The notes: a model not told the origin generated them from the letters alone. Shown: positions 9,530 to 64,000, counted from the first letter of the stretch. The stretch: DNA of 64,000 nucleotides from an uncultured Candidatus Rokubacteria bacterium (GCA_963826115.1 CAWGVS010000012.1:736001-800000); one strand, 5' to 3'. Numbers and translations are program-made.

Positions 9530-10873
9530 ATGACCACCGCCCTGCTCCAGACCCTCGCCGAGATCGTCGGGCCGGCGCACTGTCTCGCCGGCGCCGACCG
9601 GGCCCCCTACGTCGTGGACGGGCGGACGCCCTGTGGCGTCGTCCTCCCGGGCTCGGCCGACGAGGTGGCGCGCGCCGTGCGGGCCGCCGGGGCCGCCGGG
9701 GTGCCGGTGCTCCCGTGGGGCGGCGGGACCCAGATGTCGCGGGGCGCCCCGCCGCAGGACGGGGCGCTCGTCGTCAGTCTCCGGCGGATGAGCCGCGTCG
9801 TCGAGCACGAGCCGGGCGACCTCACGGCGACGGCGGAGGCCGGGATCACGTTCGATGCGCTCGAGCGCGCGCTCGGCGCGCGCGGCCAGTGGCTGCCGCT
9901 CGATCCGCCCGCGCCGGCGGAGGCGACGCTCGGCGGCGCGCTCGCCGCCAACAGCGCGGGCCCGCGCCGGCAGGGGTACGGCACCGCGCGTGACCTCGTG
10001 ATCGGCATCCGCGTGGTGGCGGCCGACGGCCAGGTCGTGCGCGCCGGCGGGAAGGTCGTGAAGAACGTGGCCGGGTACGACCTCGCGAAGCTCTACATCG
10101 GCTCCCACGGGACGCTCGGGATCATCGTGGACGCGACCGTGAAGCTCCGGCCCCGGCCGGAGACGGAGGGCGCCTGCTGGGCCGTGTTCCCGTCGCTCGA
10201 CCTCGCGGCGGCTGGCGCGACGCTCCTCGCCGGCTCCGAGCTCGGCCCGGTGGCGCTCGCGCTCTTGGACGCGGGGGCCGCGCGCGCCGCCGCGCCGGCC
10301 ATCGGCCTCGCGGCGGGCGGTGGGCCCGCCGTCCTGGCCGCGTACGATGGGCTCGGGCGCACGGTCGCGTGGCAGGCGGAGGAGACGACCCGGCGGCTCC
10401 GCGCCGCCGGCGCCCGGGCGGTCGAGGTCCTCGACGCTCCCGCCACCACGCGCGCGCTCGAGGTGGTGCGTGAGGCGCGCCATCTCCTCGCGAATCCGAT
10501 GGCGGTCGCGACGGCGGGCCTCCTGCCGGCGGACCTCGGCGCGTACATCGACGGCGCGCTGGCGACGGCGCGCGCCGCGGGGTTCGAGGCCGCCGCCGTC
10601 GCGCAGGCCGGCCACGGGCTGGTCACGCTCCTCCTCGCCCCGGCCGGCGCGGCGCGGCCGGGCGCGGTGGCGGCGGGCGTGCTCGCGGCGTGGCGGGACG
10701 CGGCGCGCGCCCGAGCCGGGCACCTCACGATCGAGTGGGCGCCGCTCGGCGTGCGCGAGGCGTGCCCGGTGTGGGACCCGCCCGGGCCGAGCGTCGCGCT
10801 CATGCGCGGGCTGAAGGCGAAGCTCGATCCCGCGGGCGTGCTGAACCCCGGGCGCTTCGTGGCGGGCATCTGA
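9530..10873 (+). CDS. glcE: Glycolate oxidase FAD subunit GlcE
   Basis: GGKVVKNVAGYDL, LKAKLDPAGVLNPGR; lies between glcD and glcF. Confidence 0.9.
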   Translation: MTTALLQTLAEIVGPAHCLAGADRAPYVVDGRTPCGVVLPGSADEVARAVRAAGAAGVPVLPWGGGTQMSRGAPPQDGALVVSLRRMSRVVEHEPGDLTATAEAGITFDALERALGARGQWLPLDPPAPAEATLGGALAANSAGPRRQGYGTARDLVIGIRVVAADGQVVRAGGKVVKNVAGYDLAKLYIGSHGTLGIIVDATVKLRPRPETEGACWAVFPSLDLAAAGATLLAGSELGPVALALLDAGAARAAAPAIGLAAGGGPAVLAAYDGLGRTVAWQAEETTRRLRAAGARAVEVLDAPATTRALEVVREARHLLANPMAVATAGLLPADLGAYIDGALATARAAGFEAAAVAQAGHGLVTLLLAPAGAARPGAVAAGVLAAWRDAARARAGHLTIEWAPLGVREACPVWDPPGPSVALMRGLKAKLDPAGVLNPGRFVAGI

Positions 10874-12213
10874 TGGCCGGGGGCGCGACCGTCACGCCGG
10901 CGCCCGGCGGCGCGCCGCCGGGAGTCCTCGCGGAGCTCGAGTACGGCCAGCTCCTCCAGTGCGTCCACTGCGGGCTGTGCCTCCCGAGCTGTCCGACGTA
11001 CGCGGAGCTCGGCCAGGAGCCCGACTCGCCGCGCGGCCGCATCTACCTCATCAAGGCGCTGGCCGACGGCCGGATCGGGCTCTCCGACGCCGCGGCCGCC
11101 CACCTGTCGCTCTGTCTCGGCTGCCGCGCCTGCGAGACCGCGTGCCCCTCGGGCGTTCAGTACGGCCACCTGATCGAGGCCGGGCGCGCCGAGCTCGAGA
11201 CACGACGCCCGGGCTCTCCCCTGCGTCGCCTCGTTCGCCGCGTTGCGTTCGGGACCCTCCTGCCCCGTCCCGCGCTCCTGCGCCTGGTCGCGGGCGCGCT
11301 CCGCGTCTACCAGCGGAGCGGGCTCCAGCGCCTGGTGCGAGCGAGCGGGGTCCTGCGCCTGTTCCCGGCGACGGTCGGAGCCTCGGAGGCTCTGCTCCCG
11401 CCGCTCCCGCCGGCCGGGGCGGGCGGTGCGCTTCCCGAGGTGACGACGGCCCGCGGCGCGCGGAAGGGATGCGTCGCGCTCCTCCACGGCTGCGTGCAGG
11501 ACGCGGTGTTCCGCCCGCACAACGAGGCGACGATCCGGTGCCTCACGCGCCAGGGCCTGGAGGTCCGGGTGCCGCGCGCCCAGGGCTGCTGCGGCGCGCT
11601 CCACGCCCACGCGGGCGAACCCGAGATGGCGCGCGCGCTCGCCCGCGCGACGATCGCCGCCTTCGAGGCGTCGGAGCTCGAGGCCGTCGTCGTCAACGCG
11701 GCCGGGTGCGGGGCGCACATGAAGGCGTACGGGCACCTCCTCCGCCACGACCCCGCGTGGACCGCGCGGGCGGCGGCCTTCGCGAAGAAGGTCGCCGACG
11801 TCACGGAGGTGCTCGCGCGGGTCCCGCTCGCGACGCCGCTCGGGCCGCTACCGCTCCGGGCGACGTACCACGACCCGTGCCACCTGGTCCACGGGCAGAA
11901 GGTCCGGAACGAGCCCCGCGCGCTTCTCCGCGCGGTGCCCGGGCTCGAGCTGGCCGAGCTCGGCGAGGCCGAGATGTGCTGCGGCTCGGCCGGGATCTAC
12001 AACCTCACCGAGCCCCAGATGGCGCAGCGGCTCCTCGACCGCAAGATGGCGCACGTCGAGGCGACGGGCGCCGAGACCGTGGTGACGGCGAACCCGGGGT
12101 GCATCCTCCAGCTCGCGGCGGGCCTCCGCGCCCGGGGCCGGAACGTGGAGGTGCTCCACGTCGTGGAGGTGCTGGACCGCGCGTACCAGGCCGCGGAGCG
12201 CCGGGCGCCGTGA
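10873..12213 (+). CDS. glcF: Glycolate oxidase Fe-S subunit GlcF
   Basis: CVHCGLCLPSCP, CLGCRACETACP, two CCG domains. Confidence 0.92.
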   Translation: MAGGATVTPAPGGAPPGVLAELEYGQLLQCVHCGLCLPSCPTYAELGQEPDSPRGRIYLIKALADGRIGLSDAAAAHLSLCLGCRACETACPSGVQYGHLIEAGRAELETRRPGSPLRRLVRRVAFGTLLPRPALLRLVAGALRVYQRSGLQRLVRASGVLRLFPATVGASEALLPPLPPAGAGGALPEVTTARGARKGCVALLHGCVQDAVFRPHNEATIRCLTRQGLEVRVPRAQGCCGALHAHAGEPEMARALARATIAAFEASELEAVVVNAAGCGAHMKAYGHLLRHDPAWTARAAAFAKKVADVTEVLARVPLATPLGPLPLRATYHDPCHLVHGQKVRNEPRALLRAVPGLELAELGEAEMCCGSAGIYNLTEPQMAQRLLDRKMAHVEATGAETVVTANPGCILQLAAGLRARGRNVEVLHVVEVLDRAYQAAERRAP

Positions 12214-56230: not shown

Positions 56231-56306
56231 GGGGCTGTAGCTCAGCTGGGAGAGCACGAGGCTGGCAGTCTCGGGGTCAGGGGTTCGATCCCCCTCAGCT
56301 CCACCA
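56231..56306 (+). tRNA. trnA: tRNA-Ala(GGC)
   Basis: 76 nt GGGGCTG...CGAGG-CTGGCAG-TCTCG...CAGCTCC-ACCA; G3.U70 pair. Confidence 0.97.
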
Positions 56307-56350
56307 TTCGAATCCGCGGGGTTGGGCACCGGTCCCACCCCGCGGATTCT
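56262..56350 (+). repeat. att direct repeat, left copy
   Basis: Runs from the anticodon loop CTGGCAG through CCA and the downstream hairpin; matches 58782-58869. Confidence 0.92.
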
Positions 56351-56356
56351 CTGTTT
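56310..56356 (+). terminator. Intrinsic terminator after tRNA-Ala
   Basis: GAATCCGCGGGG...CCCCGCGGATTC stem followed by TCTGTTT. Confidence 0.7.
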
Positions 56357-56379
56357 CGGGGTTCTGATTGCGCGGGGGT

Positions 56380-56730
56380 TGCGGATGGTTGCGCCATCCG
56401 TATGGCTTCGACGGCGTCGAGCCCGTCGACGGCGGCCTTGCTCGCCCCCGGGACGAGCTTCCCGTAGATGTCGACGGTCACCTTGATCGAGTGGTGGCCC
56501 GTCTGCTCCTTCATCTAGGCGAGGGACTCCCCGTTCTGGATGACCCGCGCGGCGAAGGTGTGCCGGAGGTCATGGAAGCGGATGCGCCGGAGACCCGCCT
56601 TGGTGAGCAGGCGGTGGAAGACGTGGCGCTCGAAGCCGGACTTCCAGATCGGCCCGCCATCCTGGTTGCAGAAGACCCACTCCGGGACCTGGCGCCAGCC
56701 CCTGGCGAGGGCCTCCTTCTCCCGCGCCAT
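56380..56730 (-). pseudogene. Tyrosine integrase remnant with internal TAG
   Basis: RIRFHDLRHTFA...GESLA*(56515-56517)MKEQTGHHSIKVTVDIYG; N-terminal part missing. Confidence 0.9.
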
Positions 56731-56756
56731 ATGCCTCGCCGGGCCGAGGACCCTCA

Positions 56757-56785
56757 TTGACTATGTGAGTACGTGGTCATATACT
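56757..56785 (+). promoter_or_regulatory. Island promoter with overlapping imperfect palindrome (ArsR operator candidate)
   Basis: TTGACT-17-TATACT; TGACTATGT-GAGT-ACGTGGTCA; AGGAGG SD follows. Confidence 0.7.
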
Positions 56786-56803
56786 ATCGGTAGGAGGATT
56801 TCA

Positions 56804-58114
56804 ATGATGACGACCGCGACCGGCACGAGGTTCCTCGTCCTGGACACGTTCCGCGCTGAGCGGGATGGCTGCCTGGCCTACCTCGTCGTGGACGAGGCGA
56901 GCCGCACCGCTCTGGCGATTGACCCGCGCCTGGATCAGGTCGACGAGATCCTCGGGACCCTGGCGACCCGCGAGGTCCGCCTGACCCATGTGCTCGATAC
57001 CCACACGCATGCCGACCACCTCTCGGGGGTGCGCCGCCTCGCCCAGCGGACCGGCGCCACCGTGCTCGCGCACACGGCCTCGAAGCTCAAGCAGCCGGCG
57101 CGGCGCATCACTGGCGGCGCGACCTTCGAGCTCGGCACGACGACGGTGACCATCTTGGACGCCCCGGGCCACACGCCCGACTCCCTCGCCATCCTCGTGG
57201 ACGGCCACCTGTTCACGGGCGACGCCCTCTTCGCCGGCGGCGCCGGCCGGACCGACTTCATGGGCGGGAGCGCCTCGGATCTCTTCGATACGCTTCGGGG
57301 CTTCGAGGCCCTCCCGGACGACACGGTGGTCCACCCCGGCCACGACTACGTCGGCCGTCCGGTGACCACGATCGGCGACGAGAAGACCGGGAATCCCCTC
57401 CTGCGCGAGCACGACCGCGGGGCCTTCGTGGCTCGCCTCTCCGGCAGGGCGGTGCCGCCGGCCAACATGGCCGCGATCCTCCGGCACAACCTCGGCGAGG
57501 TTGAGACGCCCACCATCGCGCCCCGGGAGCTGCACGCGCTTCGCGCGCAGACGTCGGAGCCGTCTGGGCCAGTGGTCCTCGACGTGCGAAGCGCGCTGGA
57601 GTTCGAGGGCGAACGGATCGAGGGCGCGCGTCTCCTTCCGCTGGATGAACTCGAAGGCCGACTCGACGAGATACCGGAGCAGGCCGAGGTCATCGTGGTG
57701 TGCCGCACGGGCGTGCGCGCGACGATCGCGGCCGAGGTGTTGGCTCGGGCGGGGCGCCGACCGCGCGTGCTCGAGGGGGGCATGATGGCCTGGCGTCGGG
57801 CCCGGCTCCCCGTGCGTGAGGGCCCGAAGCGCCTTCCCGTCGATCGCCAGGTGCAGCTGATCGCCGGGGGCATGGTACTCACCGGCCTCGCCCTCGGGAC
57901 GCTCGTCAATCCCTGGTTCCTGGGCATCTCGGCGTTCTTCGGTGCTGGGCTGACGTTCGCCGGGGCGACCGGTACCTGCGGCCTGGCGCTCCTCCTGCTG
58001 AGGATGCCGTGGAATCGGCCGCGGCCGGTCCCATCCGCCGGACCCGCGGCGGTCTGCGCCACGGGTGGCGGGACGACCGCCCCCTGTGCGGCGCCGACCG
58101 ATCCAAGGATCTGA
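56804..58114 (+). CDS. MBL-fold persulfide dioxygenase-rhodanese-DUF2892 fusion
   Basis: DTHTHADHLSG, PGHTPDS, FTGDALF, HPGHDY; rhodanese VVCRTGVRA; YgaP-like RQVQLIAG...GTCGLA...MPWN. Confidence 0.88.
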   Translation: MMTTATGTRFLVLDTFRAERDGCLAYLVVDEASRTALAIDPRLDQVDEILGTLATREVRLTHVLDTHTHADHLSGVRRLAQRTGATVLAHTASKLKQPARRITGGATFELGTTTVTILDAPGHTPDSLAILVDGHLFTGDALFAGGAGRTDFMGGSASDLFDTLRGFEALPDDTVVHPGHDYVGRPVTTIGDEKTGNPLLREHDRGAFVARLSGRAVPPANMAAILRHNLGEVETPTIAPRELHALRAQTSEPSGPVVLDVRSALEFEGERIEGARLLPLDELEGRLDEIPEQAEVIVVCRTGVRATIAAEVLARAGRRPRVLEGGMMAWRRARLPVREGPKRLPVDRQVQLIAGGMVLTGLALGTLVNPWFLGISAFFGAGLTFAGATGTCGLALLLLRMPWNRPRPVPSAGPAAVCATGGGTTAPCAAPTDPRI

Positions 58115-58116
58115 CC

Positions 58117-58458
58117 GTGCCCCGGAAGTCTGCCAAGGCGACGCTCTCGCGTGAGGCGCTCGAGATCCTCGCGCGGCGTTTTCGAGCGCTCGGCGACGCG
58201 ACACGTCTGGCGTTGCTCCAGGCCCTGTTCCGCCAGGAGCGCACGGTCCAGGAGCTGTGCGCGCTGGCCGATACGACCCAAGCCAATGCGAGCAAGCACT
58301 TGGCGCTGCTCTTCGAGCAGGGCCTCGTGGCGCGCCGGCGGGACGGCCTGTTCACTCGCTACCGGATCGCGGACCCCACGCTCGAGCAGCTCTGTCGTCT
58401 CGTGTGCGGATCGCTGGCCGAGCGACACGAGGTCATGCGCACGCACCTCGCGTCCTAG
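58117..58458 (+). CDS. ArsR/SmtB-family regulator
   Basis: FRALGDATRL, QANASKHL, GLVARRRDG, C-terminal LCRLVC. Confidence 0.92.
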   Translation: MPRKSAKATLSREALEILARRFRALGDATRLALLQALFRQERTVQELCALADTTQANASKHLALLFEQGLVARRRDGLFTRYRIADPTLEQLCRLVCGSLAERHEVMRTHLAS

Positions 58459-58781
58459 CGCCATGGCCGCCCGCTCAAGGCTGAAACACGGCGCGAGGCC
58501 TGATGGATAGCTCCTCGTGCGCTTCTTGCGCTCGTTTCGTGCCGATCCTAGGCCGCATGGGCAATGCCGCGAACCGGGACGGTCAGCGCCCGGGCCGCCA
58601 CCGGGCGTGTTGGGGGAACCGAAGGCCGGTAGTGCTGCGCCGGTCCACCACGCACGGAGGGGTTACGGTGGCGCGACGCCGCCCTTCCGGTTGCGGCGGG
58701 GTTGCGGGGCCTGCCACCCCTTCCTACGGTTTGCCGAGGGGCGCGTCTTAGCCTGCGTGGACTTCAAAGCTGGGGGTGGGC

Positions 58782-58869
58782 CTGGCAGTCTCGGGTCAGG
58801 GGTTCGATCCCCCTCAGCTCCACCATTCGAATCCGCGGGGTTGGGCACCGGTCCCACCCCGCGGATTCT
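58782..58869 (+). repeat. att direct repeat, right copy (tRNA-Ala 3' half plus terminator)
   Basis: Matches 56262-56350 except one missing G (TCGGGTCAG vs TCGGGGTCAG). Confidence 0.92.
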
Positions 58870-58913
58870 GCGTTTCGAGGGCCGCCCGCCCCGGTCCGCG
58901 GGCGGGGTGGCGC

Positions 58914-60143
58914 CTACGCGCGGCCCCGCACGAGGGCGAGCAGCCGGTCGAGCACGCGCTCCCCGTCGGCGCGGAGGCCGTTGTGCTCGTACTCGTCCGT
59001 GATCCACGGACGGAGTCCCCGGATGAGGCGCGCGGTTTCCATGGCGTACTCACGCTCCACGTACACGTCGTTGACGTAGATCGTCGCCGCGACGGGGACC
59101 TCGTTGGCGCGGAGCCGATCCGCGTCGTAGAGCCGGGGCCACGGGTGCTCGGCGAGGAGCTCGGCCGCGGCCCGGTGCGGCCGGAGCCGCCCGTACTCCT
59201 CCCACATCCACGGGAAGACCTGCTCGGCGGTGAAGAATCCCTCCGCGTCCACCTCGGCGGGCAGCGTGCGGGCCGACGACCAGCGGGTCGGGAAGCCGTC
59301 GGCGTAGCTCGACTCGTGGAGCGTGGCGTAGATGGGGTTCCGGCCCCAGCGCACGCCGGCCTCGGCGTCGTAGAGGAACGCCGGCGAGCCGAAGGGGAGC
59401 TCGATCACGTGGTGGAGGAGCTCCCAGCCCGCGCTGTCGCCGAGCCACATCCCCAGCTGGCGGAACCGGCGCGGCGTGAGCCGCTCGCCCGACGGGAGGC
59501 GCACGTCTTCCGCCGCGAGCCGCGCCAGGATCTCGCGGACGCGGGCGCGGTCGCCCGGATAGCGCGCGAAGTACGCGTGGTTCTTCTCGACGAGCCGGCC
59601 CGCCGTCGCGCCGTACACGTCGTCGGGCGGGCGCCCCACCGGCGAGAGCCCTCCCGTGATGAGCGCCTCGGCGAGCCCCTCGGGCGCGATCGAGAGGTAG
59701 GTCATCGTGGTGAAGCCGCCGAAGCTCTGGCCGAGGACGCTCCAGCGCGGGACGCCGAGCTCCCGCCGGATGTGCTCCGCGTCGCGGACGATGGCGTCGG
59801 CCCGGAAGTGCGTGAGGTACCGGGCCTGCTCCTCCGCGGTCCGGCCGGGAAGCTCGGGCCCGACCGGCGTGGAGCGCCCCGTGCCGCGCTGGTCGAGGAG
59901 CAGGACCCGGTAGTCCTGGAGGGCCCGCTTCATCCAGCCGGACGGCGGGCTCGTCGGGCGCGTGGCCTCGATGCCCGGGCCGCCCTGGAGGAAGACGAGG
60001 TACGGCCGGGCGGCGCCGTCCGGCGCGGCGACCTCGCGCGTGAACACGGTGATCCGCGGCCCGTCCGGGCGGGCGTGGTCGAGCGGGATCGCGTGCTCGC
60101 GCTCCGTCAGGAGGGCGCCAGGGACGCGGTAGGTGACGCTCAT
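58914..60143 (-). CDS. Proline iminopeptidase-like alpha/beta hydrolase
   Basis: FLQGGPG, DQRGTGRS, GQSFGG, YEHNGLR. Confidence 0.92.
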   Translation of the reverse strand: MSVTYRVPGALLTEREHAIPLDHARPDGPRITVFTREVAAPDGAARPYLVFLQGGPGIEATRPTSPPSGWMKRALQDYRVLLLDQRGTGRSTPVGPELPGRTAEEQARYLTHFRADAIVRDAEHIRRELGVPRWSVLGQSFGGFTTMTYLSIAPEGLAEALITGGLSPVGRPPDDVYGATAGRLVEKNHAYFARYPGDRARVREILARLAAEDVRLPSGERLTPRRFRQLGMWLGDSAGWELLHHVIELPFGSPAFLYDAEAGVRWGRNPIYATLHESSYADGFPTRWSSARTLPAEVDAEGFFTAEQVFPWMWEEYGRLRPHRAAAELLAEHPWPRLYDADRLRANEVPVAATIYVNDVYVEREYAMETARLIRGLRPWITDEYEHNGLRADGERVLDRLLALVRGRA

Positions 60144-60409
60144 CGGGTCGACTCCTCGCGTGAGTGCGGTGTGACGATGGAAGCCGGGCCGGCACGTCGG
60201 CCGGCCCGCGCCCCGGCGGCGCGGTCTCGGACGATCTCCTCGCTCATCGGCCCAGCTTAGCCGATCGGTGACGCCGCGCCGCGGCCGGCGCCCATTGACG
60301 GCGGCGGGCGGCGATGGTCTGCTCCCTGCCGGGCCGGCCGGCGGCGGCCCGGGCGCGGGCGCTCATCTCGGCGGCCCACGCCCGACCCCTCGCGCGAGGA
60401 GAGATCGGC

Positions 60410-60847
60410 ATGACCCGCACCCTCGGCTGGCTCCTCATCGGCGGCGGCGTGTTCGCCGTGCTCTTTCCCCTCGTCTCGTGGATGCGCGCGCGCGCGAGCC
60501 GCAGCTGGCCCGGCGTCAGCGGGCGTATCATCGAGTCCACCCTGGACGTGGAGCCCCGGGCCGGCAAGAGCGACAGCTACATGCCGCGCATCCGGTACGA
60601 GTACGCGGTGAAGGGTGAGACCTACGAGAGCAGCCAGCTGAACTTCTGGGGCTCGATGGGAGGCAGCCGGGCGGTTGCCGAGCGGACGACGGCGCGCTAC
60701 CCCGCGGGCGCCACGGTGACCGTCTACTACAACCCCGAGAGCCCGTCCGAGGCCGTCCTCGATCGGGCCTTCTCGCCCCTCGTCCTGGTCCTGCCTCCGA
60801 TCGGCGTCGTGCTGGCCGGGTTCGGTTACACCCTGCTCCAGCGATAA
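60410..60847 (+). CDS. DUF3592-like membrane protein
   Basis: TM, SRSWP..SG.I..S, YEYAV.G, G..VTVYYNPESPSEAVL, TM. Confidence 0.85.
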   Translation: MTRTLGWLLIGGGVFAVLFPLVSWMRARASRSWPGVSGRIIESTLDVEPRAGKSDSYMPRIRYEYAVKGETYESSQLNFWGSMGGSRAVAERTTARYPAGATVTVYYNPESPSEAVLDRAFSPLVLVLPPIGVVLAGFGYTLLQR

Positions 60848-60923: not shown

Positions 60924-60952
60924 TTGACCCCCTCCGGCCCTTTCGCTAGGCT
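60924..60952 (+). promoter_or_regulatory. sigma70-type promoter of the PqqD-kinase-GT operon
   Basis: TTGACC-17-TAGGCT, ending 44 nt before ATG 60997. Confidence 0.65.
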
Positions 60953-60996
60953 CGGGCCGGTTCGACGAGCGCGCGCGTCGCCCACGGGAGCCGCCC

Positions 60997-61437
60997 ATGC
61001 CGCGATACACGATCAAGAGCCCGCAGGTCATTCACGAGACCGTCGACGCCGAGGCCGTGATCGTGAACCTCGAGACCGGCAACTACTACATGCTGAAGGA
61101 GACCGGCGAGCGCATCTGGGCGGCCCTCGCGCGCGGCGCGTCGGTCCGCAACATCGTCGACGAGCTGGGCGGGGCCGCGGACGGCACCGACGGTGTGCTG
61201 GAGGCCACGGTATCGGCCTTCCTCGGCGAGCTCCTCGAAGAGGGGCTGATCGTACCCGCGCCCGAGGCGGCGGACGCGCCGCGCGCCGCGGGCGCGCCAG
61301 CGGGGGCGGGCCGGGGCACCCCGGTTCCGCCGCCCGTCCTCCAGAAGTTCCAGGACATGAAGGAGCTCATCCTCCTGGACCCCGTGCACGAGGTCCACGA
61401 GGACCTCGGCTGGCCTCATCCGAGGCCCGCGGGCTGA
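60997..61437 (+). CDS. PqqD/RRE-domain protein with a C-terminal peptide extension
   Basis: VIHETVDAEAVIVNLETGNYYML..TG.RIW..L...FLGELLEEGLI; A/G/P linker; tail PPVLQKFQDMKELILLDPVHEVHEDLGWPH. Confidence 0.85.
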   Translation: MPRYTIKSPQVIHETVDAEAVIVNLETGNYYMLKETGERIWAALARGASVRNIVDELGGAADGTDGVLEATVSAFLGELLEEGLIVPAPEAADAPRAAGAPAGAGRGTPVPPPVLQKFQDMKELILLDPVHEVHEDLGWPHPRPAG

Positions 61438-61441
61438 CCGC

Positions 61442-62512
61442 GTGAGCGCGGCGCCCCCCCTGGCCGGCGCCGCCGCGCGCGCGTGCGCGGTCGAGATGGA
61501 GGCGGCCTTCGAGGCCGCCGCGATCGCGGCGGGCGGGGTGGTCCTGCGCCACTACCTGATCGCCGGCCTGTCGGTGACGCTCCGCTTCGCGGGGCCCGCG
61601 CTGGTCGACCGGCTCACGGCGGCGCTCGAGCATCACCCGCGCGGGCGGCCCGGCGCGCCCGGGCTCACGGTCTCGCTCTGGGACACGGCGTCCACCGGCG
61701 TGCCGCCGCCGCGATTTCCCGCCGACGCCATCGACGGCGGGACGAGCGCCGCCGCGCGGTCGGGGGCGGCGCCCACCGTGCGGCTCAAGTACCGGGCGGA
61801 GCAGCGGAGCCTCTCCGTCCTCGACCGGGCCACCGACCGCGCGGTCTTCGGCGCCGCCGCCGCCGCCGGCCTCCCCTACTGGGAGACCGGCACGCCGCTG
61901 CGCGTGATCCTCCACTGGTGGATGGCCGACCACGGCCGGCAGCTCGTGCACGCGGCGGCGGTCGGCACCGCGGACCGGGGGCTCCTGCTGGTGGGCCGGG
62001 CCGGGTCGGGCAAGTCGTCCACCGCGCTCGCCTGTCTCGGCTCCCGGCTCCGCTACGCGGGCGACGACTACTGTCTCGTGAGCGTCGATCCCGACCCGCG
62101 CGCGCACAGCCTCTACGGCTCGGCCAAGCTTCACGCGGACCAGGCGCGGCGGTTCCCGGGGCTCGCGCCGGCGCTCGTCAACGCCGACCGGCTCGAGACG
62201 GAGAAGGCCCTCTACATGGTGCGTCGAGCCTTTCCGGACCACCTCCAGCCGAGCGTCCGGGTGAGCGCCCTCGTGTTGCCCGTCCTCGCCGCGGACGGCC
62301 GCACATGGCTCGAGCCCGCGTCGGCCGGCGCGGCCCTCCTGGCCGTCGCGCCGAGCACGATCCTCCAGCTTCCCGGCGCCGGGCGCGCGGCGTTCGACAC
62401 GATGTCGGGGCTCGTGCGGCAGGTGCCGTGCTACCGCCTCCATCTCGGCGGCGACCTCGCGGTCCTGCCGCGGCTGCTAGAGGGCGTCCTGGCCGAGCCG
62501 GACGCCGCCTGA
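61442..62512 (+). CDS. HPr-kinase-like P-loop kinase
   Basis: LVHAAAVG, GRAGSGKSS Walker A, YAGDDY. Confidence 0.85.
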   Translation: MSAAPPLAGAAARACAVEMEAAFEAAAIAAGGVVLRHYLIAGLSVTLRFAGPALVDRLTAALEHHPRGRPGAPGLTVSLWDTASTGVPPPRFPADAIDGGTSAAARSGAAPTVRLKYRAEQRSLSVLDRATDRAVFGAAAAAGLPYWETGTPLRVILHWWMADHGRQLVHAAAVGTADRGLLLVGRAGSGKSSTALACLGSRLRYAGDDYCLVSVDPDPRAHSLYGSAKLHADQARRFPGLAPALVNADRLETEKALYMVRRAFPDHLQPSVRVSALVLPVLAADGRTWLEPASAGAALLAVAPSTILQLPGAGRAAFDTMSGLVRQVPCYRLHLGGDLAVLPRLLEGVLAEPDAA

Positions 62513-62515
62513 CCG

Positions 62516-63943
62516 ATGCCCCCCGCGCGGGTCAGCGTGATCATCCCCGTCTTCAACGCCGCGCGTTTCCTCGTCGAGGCGCTCGACAGCATCTGGGTCC
62601 AGCGCTACCCGGCGCTGGAGGTCCTCGTCGTCGACGACGGATCCACCGACGGGAGCGCCGCCCTCGTCTCGGCGCACCTCGCGCGGCAGCCCGCGCTGCG
62701 CTTCCTCAGGCTTCCCGGGAACGCCGGGCCCGCCGCGGCCCGCAACGTGGGGCTCGCGATGGCCCGGGGCGACCTCCTCACCTTTCTCGACGCCGACGAC
62801 CGGATGGCGCCGGAGCGGCTCGCGTTCCAGGCGGCCTACCTCGGGGCGCACGGCGACGTCGACGTGGTCGTGGGAACCGAGGCGATCGAGCTTGCGCCGG
62901 GCGTCCGGCCGCCCGTGTGGCTCGGGCTCCGCCGCGGGGCGCGGCCCCGCTACTACCAGATGTCGATGATGGCGCGCCGCGCCGCCTTCGAGCGGGTCGG
63001 GCCGTTCGACGAGTCGTTCCGCATGGGCTCGGACCACGAGTGGATGTGCCGGGCGGCGACCGCCGGCGTCCGGACGGCGCTCGTCGACCGCGTCCTCCTG
63101 GTGCGCCGGCTCCACGGCGGGAACCTCACGTACCGGATCGACGAGATGCGCCAGGCGATGGAGCGCGTGCTCCTGAAGTCGGCGCGCGACCGGATCCGGG
63201 GACGCGCGTCCCACGGGAGCCGGGCGGTTGTCTCGGTCGTCGTGCCGTTCCACGCCGCGGCCCGCTATCTCGGCGAGGCCGTGGCGAGCGTTCTCGCGCA
63301 GACCTACCGGCGCTGGGAGATCCTGCTCGTGGACGACGCGTCGGCCGACGGCAGCGCGGCCGTCGCGGCGGGGCTTGCCCGGACACACCCGGAAGTCCGT
63401 CTCCTGCGCCTTCCGGAGAACCGGGGCCCTGCGGCCGCCCGCAACCATGGCCTCGCGGCCGCGCGGGGCGAGCTGATCACCTTCCTCGACGCGGACGACG
63501 CGATGCTGCCCGACCGCCTGGCCACGCAGGTCGGGTATCTTGCGGCGCACGCGGACACGGACCTCGTCCTGGGCGCCGAGGAGCTGACGGTCGAGCCGGA
63601 CGCCCCGGCGGCGACCCGGCCCCGTCAGGCGGCCCGCGGGCCGGGCCCGCGGTATCACGTCATGTCGATGATGGTGCGGCGCGACGCGCTCCGGCGGGTG
63701 GGCGGGTTCGACCCGTCCTACCGCGTGGCGGAGGACCTCGACTGGCTGTTTCGCGCCGCGGCGGCCGGTCTCGTCGTCGGGATGCTCGACCGCGTCCTGA
63801 CGCGTCACCGGTGGCACCAGGCCAACCTCTCGTACCGGATTCCGGAGATCGAGGCGGGGATCCTCCGGTCCCTGCGGCAACGGCTCCGCGAGCGGCAGGC
63901 GGATGGGCTCCCCGCTGGTCAGCGTCGTCATCCCGTTCGCTAA
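62516..63943 (+). CDS. Tandem double-domain GT2 glycosyltransferase
   Basis: Two repeats of VSV(I/V)(I/V)P, VDD.S.D, GPAAARN, FLDADD, (SD/ED)xxW. Confidence 0.92.
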   Translation: MPPARVSVIIPVFNAARFLVEALDSIWVQRYPALEVLVVDDGSTDGSAALVSAHLARQPALRFLRLPGNAGPAAARNVGLAMARGDLLTFLDADDRMAPERLAFQAAYLGAHGDVDVVVGTEAIELAPGVRPPVWLGLRRGARPRYYQMSMMARRAAFERVGPFDESFRMGSDHEWMCRAATAGVRTALVDRVLLVRRLHGGNLTYRIDEMRQAMERVLLKSARDRIRGRASHGSRAVVSVVVPFHAAARYLGEAVASVLAQTYRRWEILLVDDASADGSAAVAAGLARTHPEVRLLRLPENRGPAAARNHGLAAARGELITFLDADDAMLPDRLATQVGYLAAHADTDLVLGAEELTVEPDAPAATRPRQAARGPGPRYHVMSMMVRRDALRRVGGFDPSYRVAEDLDWLFRAAAAGLVVGMLDRVLTRHRWHQANLSYRIPEIEAGILRSLRQRLRERQADGLPAGQRRHPVR

Positions 63944-64000
63944 CCACGAGCGGCACCTGGACGCCGCCGCGCGCGGCGTCCTCGGGCAGACGTACGCGCC
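63903..64000 (+). CDS. GT2 glycosyltransferase, N-terminus (runs off window)
   Basis: MGSPLVSVVIPFANHERHLDAAARGVLGQTY; overlaps the preceding ORF by 41 nt. Confidence 0.75.
   Translation, partial: MGSPLVSVVIPFANHERHLDAAARGVLGQTYA

What the first reader, a model, noticed from the sequence alone, without database searches (positions are those of the whole stretch)
60924..64000. Candidate new RiPP-like system: RRE fused to its own peptide, an HPrK-like kinase and tandem GT2s
Seen: a promoter directly precedes a PqqD/RRE gene, leaving no room for a separate precursor. The RRE is followed by an A/G/P linker and the tail VPPPVLQKFQDMKELILLDPVHEVHEDLGWPHPRPAG, then a tightly coupled P-loop kinase and at least three GT2 domains. 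Established: RREs bind leader motifs (YxxPxL in lasso peptides), and HPrK-like kinases tailor paeninodin-type lasso peptides. Inference: VPPPVL is a cis leader-like motif, so the protein is a self-presenting substrate or scaffold for phosphorylation and glycosylation. No cyclase, peptidase or radical SAM gene is visible, but the operon runs off the window.
Basis: partly seen in the sequence, partly recalled or inferred. Interest (0 to 1): 0.8.

Follow-up and report, generated by a model that had tools for sequence, protein, structure and literature searches.

The report
RRE protein carrying its own leader-like peptide
A small peptide-binding protein that carries its own bound peptide as a tail, followed by a kinase and several sugar-adding enzymes, belongs to a widespread and unstudied bacterial gene cassette related to recently described phosphorylated peptide systems.

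Summary
Window 60997-64000 encodes a PqqD/RRE protein with an A/G/P linker and the quoted tail, then an HPrK/PEPCK-type P-loop kinase 4 nt later, a two-domain GT2, and the start of a third GT2.

The tail is not a local oddity. It is the best conserved part of the protein: 11 residues are invariant in 81 of 81 sequences, and the linker is variable. The tail profile hits 2958 representative proteins. It lies in at least 572 confirmed genomic places across many phyla.

The tail begins with [F/Y]xxPxL, the motif that lasso B1 and LPP RREs bind. AlphaFold2 docks that segment on the protein's own RRE. A complex prediction clamps the kinase onto the RRE plus tail (0.82, best control 0.08).

Related loci add a PF14907 nucleotidyltransferase, more GT2s and sometimes an MsbA-like exporter. 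None shows a cyclase, leader peptidase or separate precursor.

The closest known system is the Bacillota LPP family (Popov 2026). This looks like a new variant with the precursor-like peptide fused to its RRE.

One problem: residue 119 is Ser/Thr in 84-92% of relatives but Gln here. The window's tail has no Ser, Thr or Tyr, so phosphorylation of this copy is unsupported.

The parts
60924..60952 (+). Candidate promoter: TTGACC (60924-60929), 17-nt spacer, TAGGCT (60947-60952)
   Evidence: Read from the sequence. The generic sigma-70 scan did not call it (0 sites), so it is unverified.
60986..60990 (+). Shine-Dalgarno-like GGGAG, 6 nt before the ATG
   Evidence: Read from the sequence.
60997..61437 (+). 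Gene for the RRE-plus-tail protein (146 aa)
   Evidence: ORF. PqqD E 1e-13. 55 of 58 homologues cover at least 88% of its length.
60997..61257 (+). RRE domain, residues 1-87 (three strands, then three helices)
   Evidence: AlphaFold2 pLDDT 74-95 for these blocks; strands 11-16, 19-24, 29-34; helices 35-45, 50-56, 65-81. Foldseek: TbiB1 with leader, 5v1u/5v1v, E 4e-5. Profile against PDB: TbiB1 E 6.6e-18.
61258..61323 (+). Variable A/G/P-rich linker, residues 88-109
   Evidence: Mean column identity 0.23 in 81 sequences, with length variation. AlphaFold2 pLDDT 53-58.
61324..61422 (+). Conserved tail, residues 110-142: [F/Y]xxPxL, then K-[Y/F]-x-D-M, L-L-D-P-x-H-x-V, G-W-P
   Evidence: Mean column identity 0.76. 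D120, M121, L126, L127, D128, P129, H131, V133, G138, W139 and P140 are invariant in 81 of 81. Residues 111-120 have pLDDT about 90 with a strand at 115-118. Residues 118, 120-121 and 136-142 lie in the predicted kinase interface.
61442..62512 (+). HPrK/PEPCK-fold P-loop kinase (356 aa); P-loop G185-S192 at nt 61994-62017
   Evidence: Profile against PDB: HPrK/P 1jb1, E 3.4e-5. AlphaFold2 pLDDT 93. Foldseek: ATP-dependent PEPCK E 2e-11 and HPrK/P E 5e-7.
62516..63943 (+). Tandem two-domain GT2 glycosyltransferase (475 aa)
   Evidence: Glycos_transf_2 E 5e-68 in two stretches.
63903..64000 (+). Start of a third GT2 gene. It overlaps the previous gene by 41 nt and is cut by the window end

Best explanation
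The window holds the first four genes of a widespread, uncharacterised cassette. The core of the cassette is:
- a lasso-B1-type RRE fused through a disordered linker to an invariant peptide of about 33 residues;
- an HPrK/PEPCK-fold kinase;
- several small GT2 glycosyltransferases;
- in relatives, a PF14907 nucleotidyltransferase and sometimes an MsbA-like exporter.

Proposed mechanism:
1. The [F/Y]xxPxL start of the tail binds the protein's own RRE as an added beta-strand, as lasso and LPP leaders bind their RREs in trans.
2. A helix of the kinase (residues 295-309) packs on this extended sheet. The rest of the tail (D-M, G-W-P) lies against the kinase N-domain and P-loop.
3. The protein is thus a self-recognising precursor or scaffold. 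In most family members the Ser/Thr in K-[Y/F]-[T/S]-D-M would be phosphorylated. The PF14907 enzyme and the GT2s would then decorate it, by analogy with LPP Ser3, paeninodin and pseudomycoidin.

Basis of each step: steps 1 and 2 are predictions backed by conservation. Step 3 is inference.

In the window's own clade that residue is Gln. This copy is therefore either modified elsewhere or by other chemistry, or it acts as a non-phosphorylatable scaffold.

My odds: about 0.85 that the protein is an RRE with a cis-bound tail that partners the kinase inside this cassette. About 0.5 that the tail itself is what the enzymes modify.
For: Conservation:
- The tail is the most conserved part of the protein: mean column identity 0.76, against 0.54 for the RRE and 0.23 for the linker, with 11 residues invariant in 81 of 81. 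The same pattern appears in 35 of the 58 homologues that I aligned.
- Invariant or near-invariant RRE residues (G28, Y30, Y31, W41, L79, L84) lie on strand 3 and helices 1 and 3.

Spread:
572 were confirmed and 80 kept. Their record titles name at least a dozen phyla.
- The tail-only profile hits 2958 representatives at E <= 1e-3 and 1459 at E <= 1e-10.

Fusion:
- The tail motif occurs once per cassette and always behind an RRE, in 80 loci plus the window. L019 has two cassettes.

Structure predictions:
- AlphaFold2 gives pLDDT about 90 and a strand at 115-118 for residues 111-120.
- The best structural and sequence matches are lasso B1 proteins solved with their leaders.
- Complex prediction: score 0.82, best of 3 controls 0.08. 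That mark was reached by 116 of 157 solved complexes and 2 of 215 mismatched pairs. The counts hold only roughly, because my own alignments were used. The runs agree in at least 68% of contacts, and the partner's pLDDT is at least 74.
- The predicted interface joins kinase 294-309 and 314-326 to RRE residues 9-32. It joins tail residues 118, 120-121 and 136-142 to kinase 82-140 and P-loop residues 186-187.

Gene context in the 80 loci:
- Kinase in 72 of 80. All 8 without it have at most about 2.6 kb of DNA held after the RRE gene.
- Kinase directly downstream on the same strand in 49.
- GT2 in 68 of 80 by tblastn, or 61 loci with 154 ORFs by clustering.
- PF14907 in 57 of 80 and an ABC exporter in 20 of 80.
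- Kinase-GT2 fusions in L021 and L051.

Position 119 is Ser/Thr in 84% of 81 sequences and in 137 of 149 top representatives.

[quoted passage not shown] Their leader reads YxxPxVL. The kinase polyphosphorylates Ser3, and a peptidase helix packs on the RRE-leader sheet. Passages of PMC8498205 describe paeninodin and pseudomycoidin.
Against: - The window's tail (110-146) contains no Ser, Thr or Tyr. Residue 119 is Gln throughout the window's clade (P0001-P0011, down to 58% identity).
- Among the 80 loci, 12 lack Ser/Thr at 119 (D or E in 6; also Q, N, V, R) yet keep the kinase. A hydroxyl there is therefore not essential to the family.
- An invariant 'core' is unlike typical RiPP cores, which vary. 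It fits a docking motif equally well.
- No peptidase that could release a product is conserved.
- The exporter is present in only 20 of 80 loci.
- All structural evidence is predicted. I could not inspect coordinates, so pairing of strand 115-118 with RRE strand 3 is inferred from secondary structure, pLDDT and the interface list.
- The PF14907 gene and the exporter are not visible in the window itself, because the operon runs off its end.
Confidence: 0.55

Rival explanations
1. Adaptor or pseudosubstrate. The tail is not modified. It is a docking and autoinhibitory element that occupies the RRE groove and recruits or regulates the kinase, and perhaps the other enzymes. The true substrate is a peptide encoded elsewhere, or a sugar or lipid.
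For: - The tail is invariant in the way binding motifs are. The residues conserved in all 81 sequences include no hydroxyl residue.
- The window's clade has Gln at 119 and no Ser, Thr or Tyr in the tail.
- The kinase is retained in the loci that lack Ser/Thr at 119.
- The predicted complex is a stable clamp with a large interface of 78-79 confident contacts.
Against: - No conserved small ORF exists in the loci. Of 11,434 ORFs of 18-90 aa, the 15 largest clusters all look like out-of-frame or antisense shadows of the large genes.
- No second copy of the motif is found.
- Ser/Thr at 119 in 84-92% of members, flanked by kinase-contacting residues, needs an explanation.
- In the LPP and paeninodin systems the homologous kinases act on the RRE-bound peptide itself (PMC13381572; PMC8498205).
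Confidence: 0.28
2. Glycan pathway. The cassette makes an exopolysaccharide or other glycoconjugate. The kinase and the PF14907 enzyme act on sugars or carriers, and the RRE protein is a regulatory or assembly subunit. Peptide chemistry plays no part.
For: - Every other recurrent neighbour is glycan-related: NAD epimerase/dehydratase (16 loci), GT4 (12, 8 and 4 loci in three clusters), Wzx-like Polysacc_synt_3 (6), GlcNAc 2-epimerase (5) and polysaccharide deacetylase (4). GT9, GT10 and sulfotransferase also occur.
- The kinase as a whole folds like PEP carboxykinase, a small-molecule enzyme.
Against: - No priming phosphoglycosyltransferase or Wzy-type polymerase recurs.
- An RRE with a cis-bound leader-type motif and a predicted tight kinase complex has no known role in polysaccharide synthesis.
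- LPP clusters are also embedded in glycosyltransferase-rich loci and still modify a peptide (PMC13381572, sections 6 and 7).
Confidence: 0.12
3. Ordinary lasso or LPP cluster. A conventional precursor plus a cyclase and B2 peptidase, or an SpI-like peptidase, lies just beyond the window end, and the tail is incidental.
For: - The operon is cut at 64000.
- The RRE is closest to lasso B1 proteins.
Against: - 0 of 143 ORFs from 10 fully scanned loci match Asn_synthase, a transglutaminase-type peptidase or a signal peptidase.
- 0 of 26 further ORFs from 8 loci do so.
- None of the 13 representatives that I scanned, taken from the ORF clusters found in 4 or more of the 80 loci, is a peptidase or a cyclase.
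- L055 has the window's gene order and continues with a PF14907 gene.
Confidence: 0.03

Closest known systems
Linear polyphosphorylated peptide (LPP) clusters of Bacillota (Popov et al., Nat Commun 2026, PMC13381572; sections 6, 7, 11 and 12 read)
   Same: - RRE, HprK-like kinase, uncharacterised NTP transferase and MsbA-like exporter, in glycosyltransferase-rich loci and without a lasso cyclase.
- An RRE-binding motif of the form YxxPx(V)L.
- A partner-enzyme helix packing on the sheet formed by the RRE and the bound peptide.
   Different: - LPP has a separate precursor of 35-200 aa (YxxPxVLxHQxIxFETxxS, with a variable C-terminus) and an SpI-like leader peptidase. Here the peptide is fused to the RRE and invariant, and no peptidase is conserved.
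- The paper describes LPP as restricted to Bacillota. This family is found in Actinomycetota, Chloroflexota, Nitrospirota, Acidobacteriota, Cyanobacteria and other phyla.
- By profile score the RRE is nearer to TbiB1 (E 6.6e-18) than to PDB entry 9x8z_B ('PqqD family protein', E 2.6e-6). I assume, without having checked, that 9x8z_B is the LPP RRE.
Paeninodin- and pseudomycoidin-type lasso tailoring (HPr-kinase homologue, with or without a nucleotidyltransferase; passages of review PMC8498205)
   Same: A kinase of the same superfamily phosphorylates a Ser of an RRE-recognised peptide. A nucleotidyltransferase then adds hexose to the phosphate. An ABC exporter is present.
   Different: There is no precursor gene A, B2 peptidase or cyclase C here. 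The acceptor in those systems is a C-terminal Ser, and the tail here has no conserved C-terminal Ser.
Lasso B1 proteins solved with their leaders (TbiB1 5v1u/5v1v, TfuB1 6jx3)
   Same: Best structural and sequence matches of the RRE domain. The ligand motif YxxPxL resembles [F/Y]xxPxL.
   Different: Those bind the leader in trans and hand it to a protease. Here the ligand is covalently tethered.
Borosins, in which the precursor core is fused to its own methyltransferase (recalled; only a search listing seen)
   Same: The substrate peptide is encoded in cis at the C-terminus of a protein of its own pathway.
   Different: In borosins the fusion partner is the catalytic enzyme. Here it is the recognition domain.
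NCBIfam 'HPr-rel-A system' (TIGR04352 kinase A and TIGR04353 PqqD chaperone)
   Same: A pairing of a PqqD-family chaperone with an HprK-related kinase.
   Different: Both window proteins score far below the family cut-offs: 40 against 200 bits, and 20.9 against 35 bits. They are not members.

Membership tests
PqqD / RiPP recognition element (PF05402) | Pfam score above the gathering cut-off | tested here: met
   51.8 bits against 23.4, residues 19-85.
PqqD / RiPP recognition element (PF05402) | Winged-helix fold: three strands followed by three helices | tested here: met
   AlphaFold2 strands 11-16, 19-24, 29-34 and helices 35-45, 50-56, 65-81. Foldseek to TbiB1, TM-score 0.83-0.86 normalised to the target.
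Lasso peptide cluster | Lasso cyclase (Asn-synthase-like) and B2 transglutaminase-type leader peptidase | tested here: not met
   None among 143 ORFs of 10 related loci, 26 further ORFs of 8 loci, or the 13 scanned representatives of recurrent ORF clusters. The window itself ends too early to test.
Lasso peptide cluster | Separate short precursor with a YxxPxL leader | tested here: not met
   No ORF in the 149-nt upstream gap. No conserved small ORF in the 80 loci. No free-standing copy of the motif. A hypervariable peptide could still escape these searches.
LPP family (PMC13381572) | SpI-like (SipW-type) leader peptidase | tested here: not met
   No signal-peptidase family hit.
LPP family (PMC13381572) | Discrete RRE plus HprK-like kinase | tested here: met
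   The kinase is in 72 of 80 related loci. The RRE is not discrete, because it carries the tail.
LPP family (PMC13381572) | NTP transferase and MsbA-like exporter | tested here: inconclusive
   PF14907 in 57 of 80 and an ABC exporter in 20 of 80 related loci. Neither is visible in the window, which ends at the third GT2.
LPP family (PMC13381572) | Separate precursor with YxxPxVLxHQxIxFETxxS and a phosphorylated Ser | tested here: not met
   The only motif-bearing sequence is the fused tail, [F/Y]xxPxLxK[Y/F][T/S]DM.... Phosphorylation cannot be tested with these tools.
HPr kinase/phosphorylase proper (TIGR00679) | Score above the family cut-off | tested here: not met
   16.8 bits against 240. 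Pfam Hpr_kinase_C gives 18.3 against 33.3.
HPrK / PEPCK-like P-loop kinase superfamily | Walker-A P-loop within an HPrK/PEPCK-type fold | tested here: met
   GRAGSGKS at residues 185-192. Profile match to HPrK/P 1jb1, E 3.4e-5, over 166-221. Foldseek PEPCK E 2e-11 and HPrK/P E 5e-7.
NCBIfam HPr-rel-A system | TIGR04352 and TIGR04353 above their cut-offs | tested here: not met
   40 against 200 bits, and 20.9 against 35 bits.
GT2 glycosyltransferases (PF00535) | Pfam score above the cut-off | tested here: met
   228.7 bits in two domains. A third N-terminus is at 63903.

The most novel reading that the evidence does not exclude
A new class of RiPP-like, protein-primed glycoconjugate.
- The whole RRE domain acts as a cis 'leader' for an invariant C-terminal peptide.
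- That peptide is phosphorylated by the clamped kinase.
- It is then phosphoglycosylated by the PF14907 enzyme.
- It is extended into an oligosaccharide by two to six GT2s, and in some lineages exported.

The system would be conserved in hundreds of species across a dozen or more phyla. The invariant peptide would imply one common, cofactor-like or structural function and not a variable antibiotic.
Probability: 0.3. Interest if true: 0.85.

Novelty: new variant of a known kind. Interest (0 to 1): 0.72.

Why it matters
RREs are thought of as readers of separate leader peptides. It is conserved from cyanobacteria to actinobacteria and is always next to an HPrK-type kinase, a PF14907 enzyme and glycosyltransferases.

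- It gives a defined, tethered substrate candidate for two poorly understood enzyme families. The authors of the LPP paper could not find the product of the NTP transferase.
- It extends the kinase, nucleotidyltransferase and exporter module far beyond Bacillota.
- It offers cultured, harmless hosts for experiments, such as Oscillatoria sp. PCC 10802 and Chamaesiphon polymorphus.
- The Gln119 clade is a natural control for the role of the putative phospho-site.

Tried and rejected
- Promoter: the generic sigma-70 and terminator scan found no promoter, so the promoter claim stays unverified.
- Small conserved precursor ORFs: the 15 largest clusters among 11,434 ORFs of 18-90 aa all look like shadows of large genes. 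Upstream gaps of 8 low-GC loci, read by eye, show nothing shared.
- Free-standing copies of the tail in the loci: none.
- Split forms:
  - Of the 150 best representatives of the tail profile, 97 have a full RRE, 20 have an N-truncated RRE and 33 give no RRE hit.
  - Many of those 33 visibly keep the last RRE helix, so I read them as truncated gene calls. A few of 46-70 aa remain ambiguous.
  - In the window's clade the 'shorter' search gave 2 hits. P0211 shares a longest-contig length of 305,414 nt with the fragment P0053, and together they look like one frameshifted gene. P0210 is undecided.
- Longer fused forms: none found, which the tool itself rates as weak evidence.
- Literature:
  - Four tail motifs as text strings gave 0 papers.
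  - 'HPr-rel-A', 'HprK-related kinase', TIGR04352 and TIGR04353 gave 0 papers.
  - PF14907, NTP_transf_5, HprK and lasso gave nothing on this family.
  - 'Fused to the RRE' gave no paper with that phrase.
- ESM Atlas: the nearest clusters are named only 'hypothetical protein' or 'PqqD family protein'.
- Correction: an earlier count gave the kinase count as 68 of 80. That figure is the GT2 count. The kinase count is 72 of 80.
- Not checked: the metagenome and viral contig collections (closed), the window's own contig beyond position 64000, and the supplements of PMC13381572. Its domain co-occurrence table and RRE tree could show whether the authors saw this family.


Full report
**What is in the window.**
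- On the + strand, a 146-aa ORF (60997..61437) is followed 4 nt later by a 356-aa ORF (61442..62512).
- Three nt after that comes a 475-aa ORF (62516..63943).
- A further ORF starts at ATG 63903 and runs off the window.
- The first protein matches PqqD (PF05402) over residues 19-85, E 1e-13.
- The second matches HPr-kinase models only weakly: Hpr_kinase_C E 0.0018, and TIGR04352 at 40 bits against a cut-off of 200.
- The third has two GT2 domains.
- The 32 residues from 63903 align with the starts of both GT2 domains.
- GC content is about 75% throughout 54-64 kb, so the cassette is not compositionally foreign.
- The hexamers TTGACC, 17 nt, TAGGCT and a GGGAG before the ATG are present. The generic promoter scan called nothing.
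- The 149-nt upstream gap holds no independent ORF of 20 aa or more.

**The tail is the point.**
- A word-indexed search found 58 homologues. 55 of them cover at least 88% of the query, and most are 140-170 aa.
- I aligned 35 of these 58, leaving out near-duplicates, two fragments and one chimera. The A/G/P linker varies in length and sequence, while the tail is nearly fixed.
- With the window and 80 genomic loci (81 sequences), mean column identity is 0.54 for the RRE, 0.23 for the linker and 0.76 for residues 110-142.
- D120, M121, L126, L127, D128, P129, H131, V133, G138, W139 and P140 are identical in all 81. F110 is present in 86%, P113 in 96%, L115 in 91% and K117 in 89%.
- The consensus is [F/Y]-x-x-P-x-L-x-K-[Y/F]-[T/S]-D-M-Q-[D/E]-L-[L/I]-L-L-D-P-[I/V]-H-E-V-D-x-x-G-W-P.

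**How widespread it is.**
572 were confirmed by tblastn and the best 80 were kept.
- Their record titles name Actinomycetota, Chloroflexota, Nitrospirota, Acidobacteriota, Verrucomicrobiota, Cyanobacteria (including Oscillatoria sp. PCC 10802 and Chamaesiphon polymorphus), Desulfobacterota-type lineages, Binatia, Planctomycetota, Methylomirabilota, Spirochaetia and a Xanthobacteraceae genome.
- A 33-position profile of the tail alone hits 2958 proteins at E <= 1e-3 and 1459 at E <= 1e-10. The library holds 1.84 billion representatives.
- None of the 80 loci is the window's own genome; the best identity is 48%.

**The tail is always fused.**
- The tail profile was run against every stop-to-stop frame of the 80 loci and the window (30,428 segments). 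It gives one significant hit per cassette, always behind an RRE. L019 has two whole cassettes.
- Of the 150 best representatives, 97 have a full RRE, 20 have an N-truncated RRE and 33 give no RRE hit.
- Many of those 33 still begin with the last RRE helix (ELxxEGLIV). I therefore read them as truncated gene calls. A handful of 46-70 aa are undecidable.
- In the window's clade, the short hit P0211 and the fragment P0053 report the same longest-contig length (305,414 nt). They look like the two halves of one frameshifted gene.
- No longer fused form was found, which is weak evidence.

**Gene context.**
- By tblastn, the kinase is present in 72 of 80 loci. The 8 without it all have at most about 2.6 kb of DNA held after the RRE gene.
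- In 49 loci the kinase starts within 400 nt downstream on the same strand.
- GT2 hits occur in 68 of 80 loci.
- Clustering of all ORFs of 110 aa or more gives GT2 in 61 loci with 154 copies, the kinase in 70 and PF14907 in 54 plus 6.
- By tblastn, PF14907 is in 57 of 80 loci and an ABC_membrane plus ABC_tran exporter in 20 of 80.
- Pfam scans covered 143 ORFs from 10 lower-GC loci. They also covered 26 of the 126 ORFs listed for 9 high-GC loci; the 26 come from 8 of these and were the ones not already identified. A further 13 representatives of recurrent ORF clusters were scanned.
- Together these scans show only glycan-related companions: GT4, GT9, GT10, NAD epimerases/dehydratases, GlcNAc 2-epimerase, sulfotransferase, methyl- and acyltransferases, a Wzx-like flippase (6 loci), a polysaccharide deacetylase, and radical SAM/SPASM proteins in a few loci.
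- None matches an Asn-synthase-type lasso cyclase, a transglutaminase-type B2 peptidase or a signal peptidase.
- Kinase-GT2 fusions exist in L021 and L051.
- L055 shares the window's order: RRE-tail, kinase, fused GT2s, then PF14907. The window's operon therefore probably continues with a PF14907 gene. This is an inference.
- No conserved small ORF was found.

**Structure predictions.**
- AlphaFold2 with alignment A1 gives a confident RRE fold. The linker is poorly defined (pLDDT 53-58). Residues 111-120 reach pLDDT about 90 with a beta-strand at 115-118. Residues 121-146 are of low confidence in the monomer.
- Foldseek and a sequence profile both put lasso B1 proteins solved with their leaders on top (TbiB1 5v1u/5v1v, TfuB1 6jx3).
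- The kinase model is very confident (pLDDT 93). Over both domains it resembles ATP-dependent PEP carboxykinase (E 2e-11). Its P-loop domain resembles HPrK/P (E 5e-7).
- A complex prediction of the kinase (A2) with the RRE-tail protein (A3) scored 0.82, 0.81 and 0.83 in three runs. The best of 3 controls scored 0.08.
  - That mark was reached by 116 of 157 solved complexes and 2 of 215 mismatched pairs. The counts hold only roughly, because my own alignments were used.
  - The runs agree in at least 68% of contacts, and the partner's pLDDT is at least 74.
  - Kinase helix 294-309 and residues 314-326 touch RRE residues 9-32, which is one face of the sheet, and F118.
  - Tail residues 120-121 and 136-142 touch kinase 82-140 and P-loop residues 186-187.
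  - This supports binding but does not show it.
  - I know of no solved complex of an RRE with such a kinase, so a pass from memory seems unlikely. This point rests on recall.
- I could not inspect coordinates. Pairing of the tail strand with RRE strand 3 is therefore inferred.

**Comparison with what is known.**
- The closest published system is the LPP family (Popov et al. 2026, PMC13381572; sections 6, 7, 11 and 12 read).
  - A separate precursor begins YxxPxVLxHQxIxFETxxS. The kinase puts up to four phosphates on core Ser3.
  - The peptidase's N-terminal helix packs on the RRE-leader sheet.
  - The NTP transferase was inactive in their host, and the final product is unknown.
- Passages of a review (PMC8498205) describe the paeninodin kinase, which acts on a C-terminal Ser. 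They also describe the pseudomycoidin kinase and nucleotidyltransferase, which attach hexose to the phosphate.
- The present family shares the module of RRE, kinase, nucleotidyltransferase, exporter and glycosyltransferases, and the leader motif. It differs in four ways:
  - the peptide is fused to the RRE;
  - the peptide is invariant and not variable;
  - no leader peptidase is conserved;
  - the range covers many phyla.
- RRE survey papers mention PF05402 proteins longer than 110 aa without other domains as unexplored, but do not describe this family (passages of PMC12710340).
- My text searches found no description of it.

**The main difficulty.**
- Position 119, in K-[Y/F]-x-D-M, sits between two kinase-contacting residues. 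It is Ser/Thr in 84% of the 81 sequences and in 137 of 149 top representatives. That makes it the obvious candidate acceptor.
- In the window and its closest relatives (P0001-P0011) it is Gln. The window's tail has no Ser, Thr or Tyr at all.
- Twelve of the 80 loci also lack Ser/Thr there (Asp or Glu in six) and still keep the kinase.
- The window's kinase keeps every family-invariant residue: H64, P152, H170, G188, G190, K191, K255 and P329.
- So either phosphorylation at 119 is not the essential step, or it occurs on another residue type, or the tail is a docking or pseudosubstrate element.
- I favour the self-presented substrate or scaffold reading for the family at about even odds. I hold the adaptor reading at about 0.28.

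**Verdict.** The system is a new, very widespread variant of the LPP/paeninodin-type phospho-glyco module.

Noticed in passing
window 56231-58880: An 88-nt direct repeat (56274-56361 and 58793-58880, 97% identical) copies the 3' part of tRNA-Ala(GGC) and the sequence after it. The repeat brackets about 2.5 kb. That stretch holds a truncated, frame-broken tyrosine-integrase remnant (56518-56757, Phage_integrase E 2e-10, profile positions 90-145 only), a metallo-beta-lactamase/rhodanese/YgaP-type fusion (56807-58111) and an ArsR-type regulator (58009-58455). It looks like a decayed integrated islet.
   Followed up: partly
L019 1961-4831 (- strand) and 10001-12159 (+ strand): One Acidimicrobiia genome carries two complete cassettes (RRE-tail, kinase, GT2) in opposite orientation within 10 kb.
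   Followed up: no
L021 13704-15512; L051 14391-16277: The kinase is fused to a GT2 domain in one polypeptide of 602 and 628 aa. This ties the kinase physically to glycosylation.
   Followed up: no
L021, L040 and L080, C-terminal ends of the RRE-tail proteins: Three Nitrospirota-type members have a longer C-terminus with a second W-P element about 10 residues after the invariant G-W-P: GWPN..KKDWPTRNPD, GWPN..KKGWPTRNPD and GWPN..NKGWPTRDPD.
   Followed up: no
L021 18687-19547; L037 16316-17395; L051 7260-8264; L035 6436-7014: Radical SAM or SPASM proteins sit inside or beside a minority of cassettes. They hint at extra peptide chemistry in some lineages.
   Followed up: no
proteins P0053 and P0211 (both report a longest contig of 305,414 nt): In the window's clade, one copy of the RRE-tail gene appears split into an 84-aa and a 76-aa gene call by a frameshift. 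It is either a pseudogene or a sequencing error.
   Followed up: partly
window 60314-60847 and 58914-60143: The genes just upstream are a DUF3592 membrane protein (+ strand) and an alpha/beta hydrolase (- strand). Neither recurs next to the cassette in other genomes, so the cassette starts at the RRE gene.
   Followed up: yes
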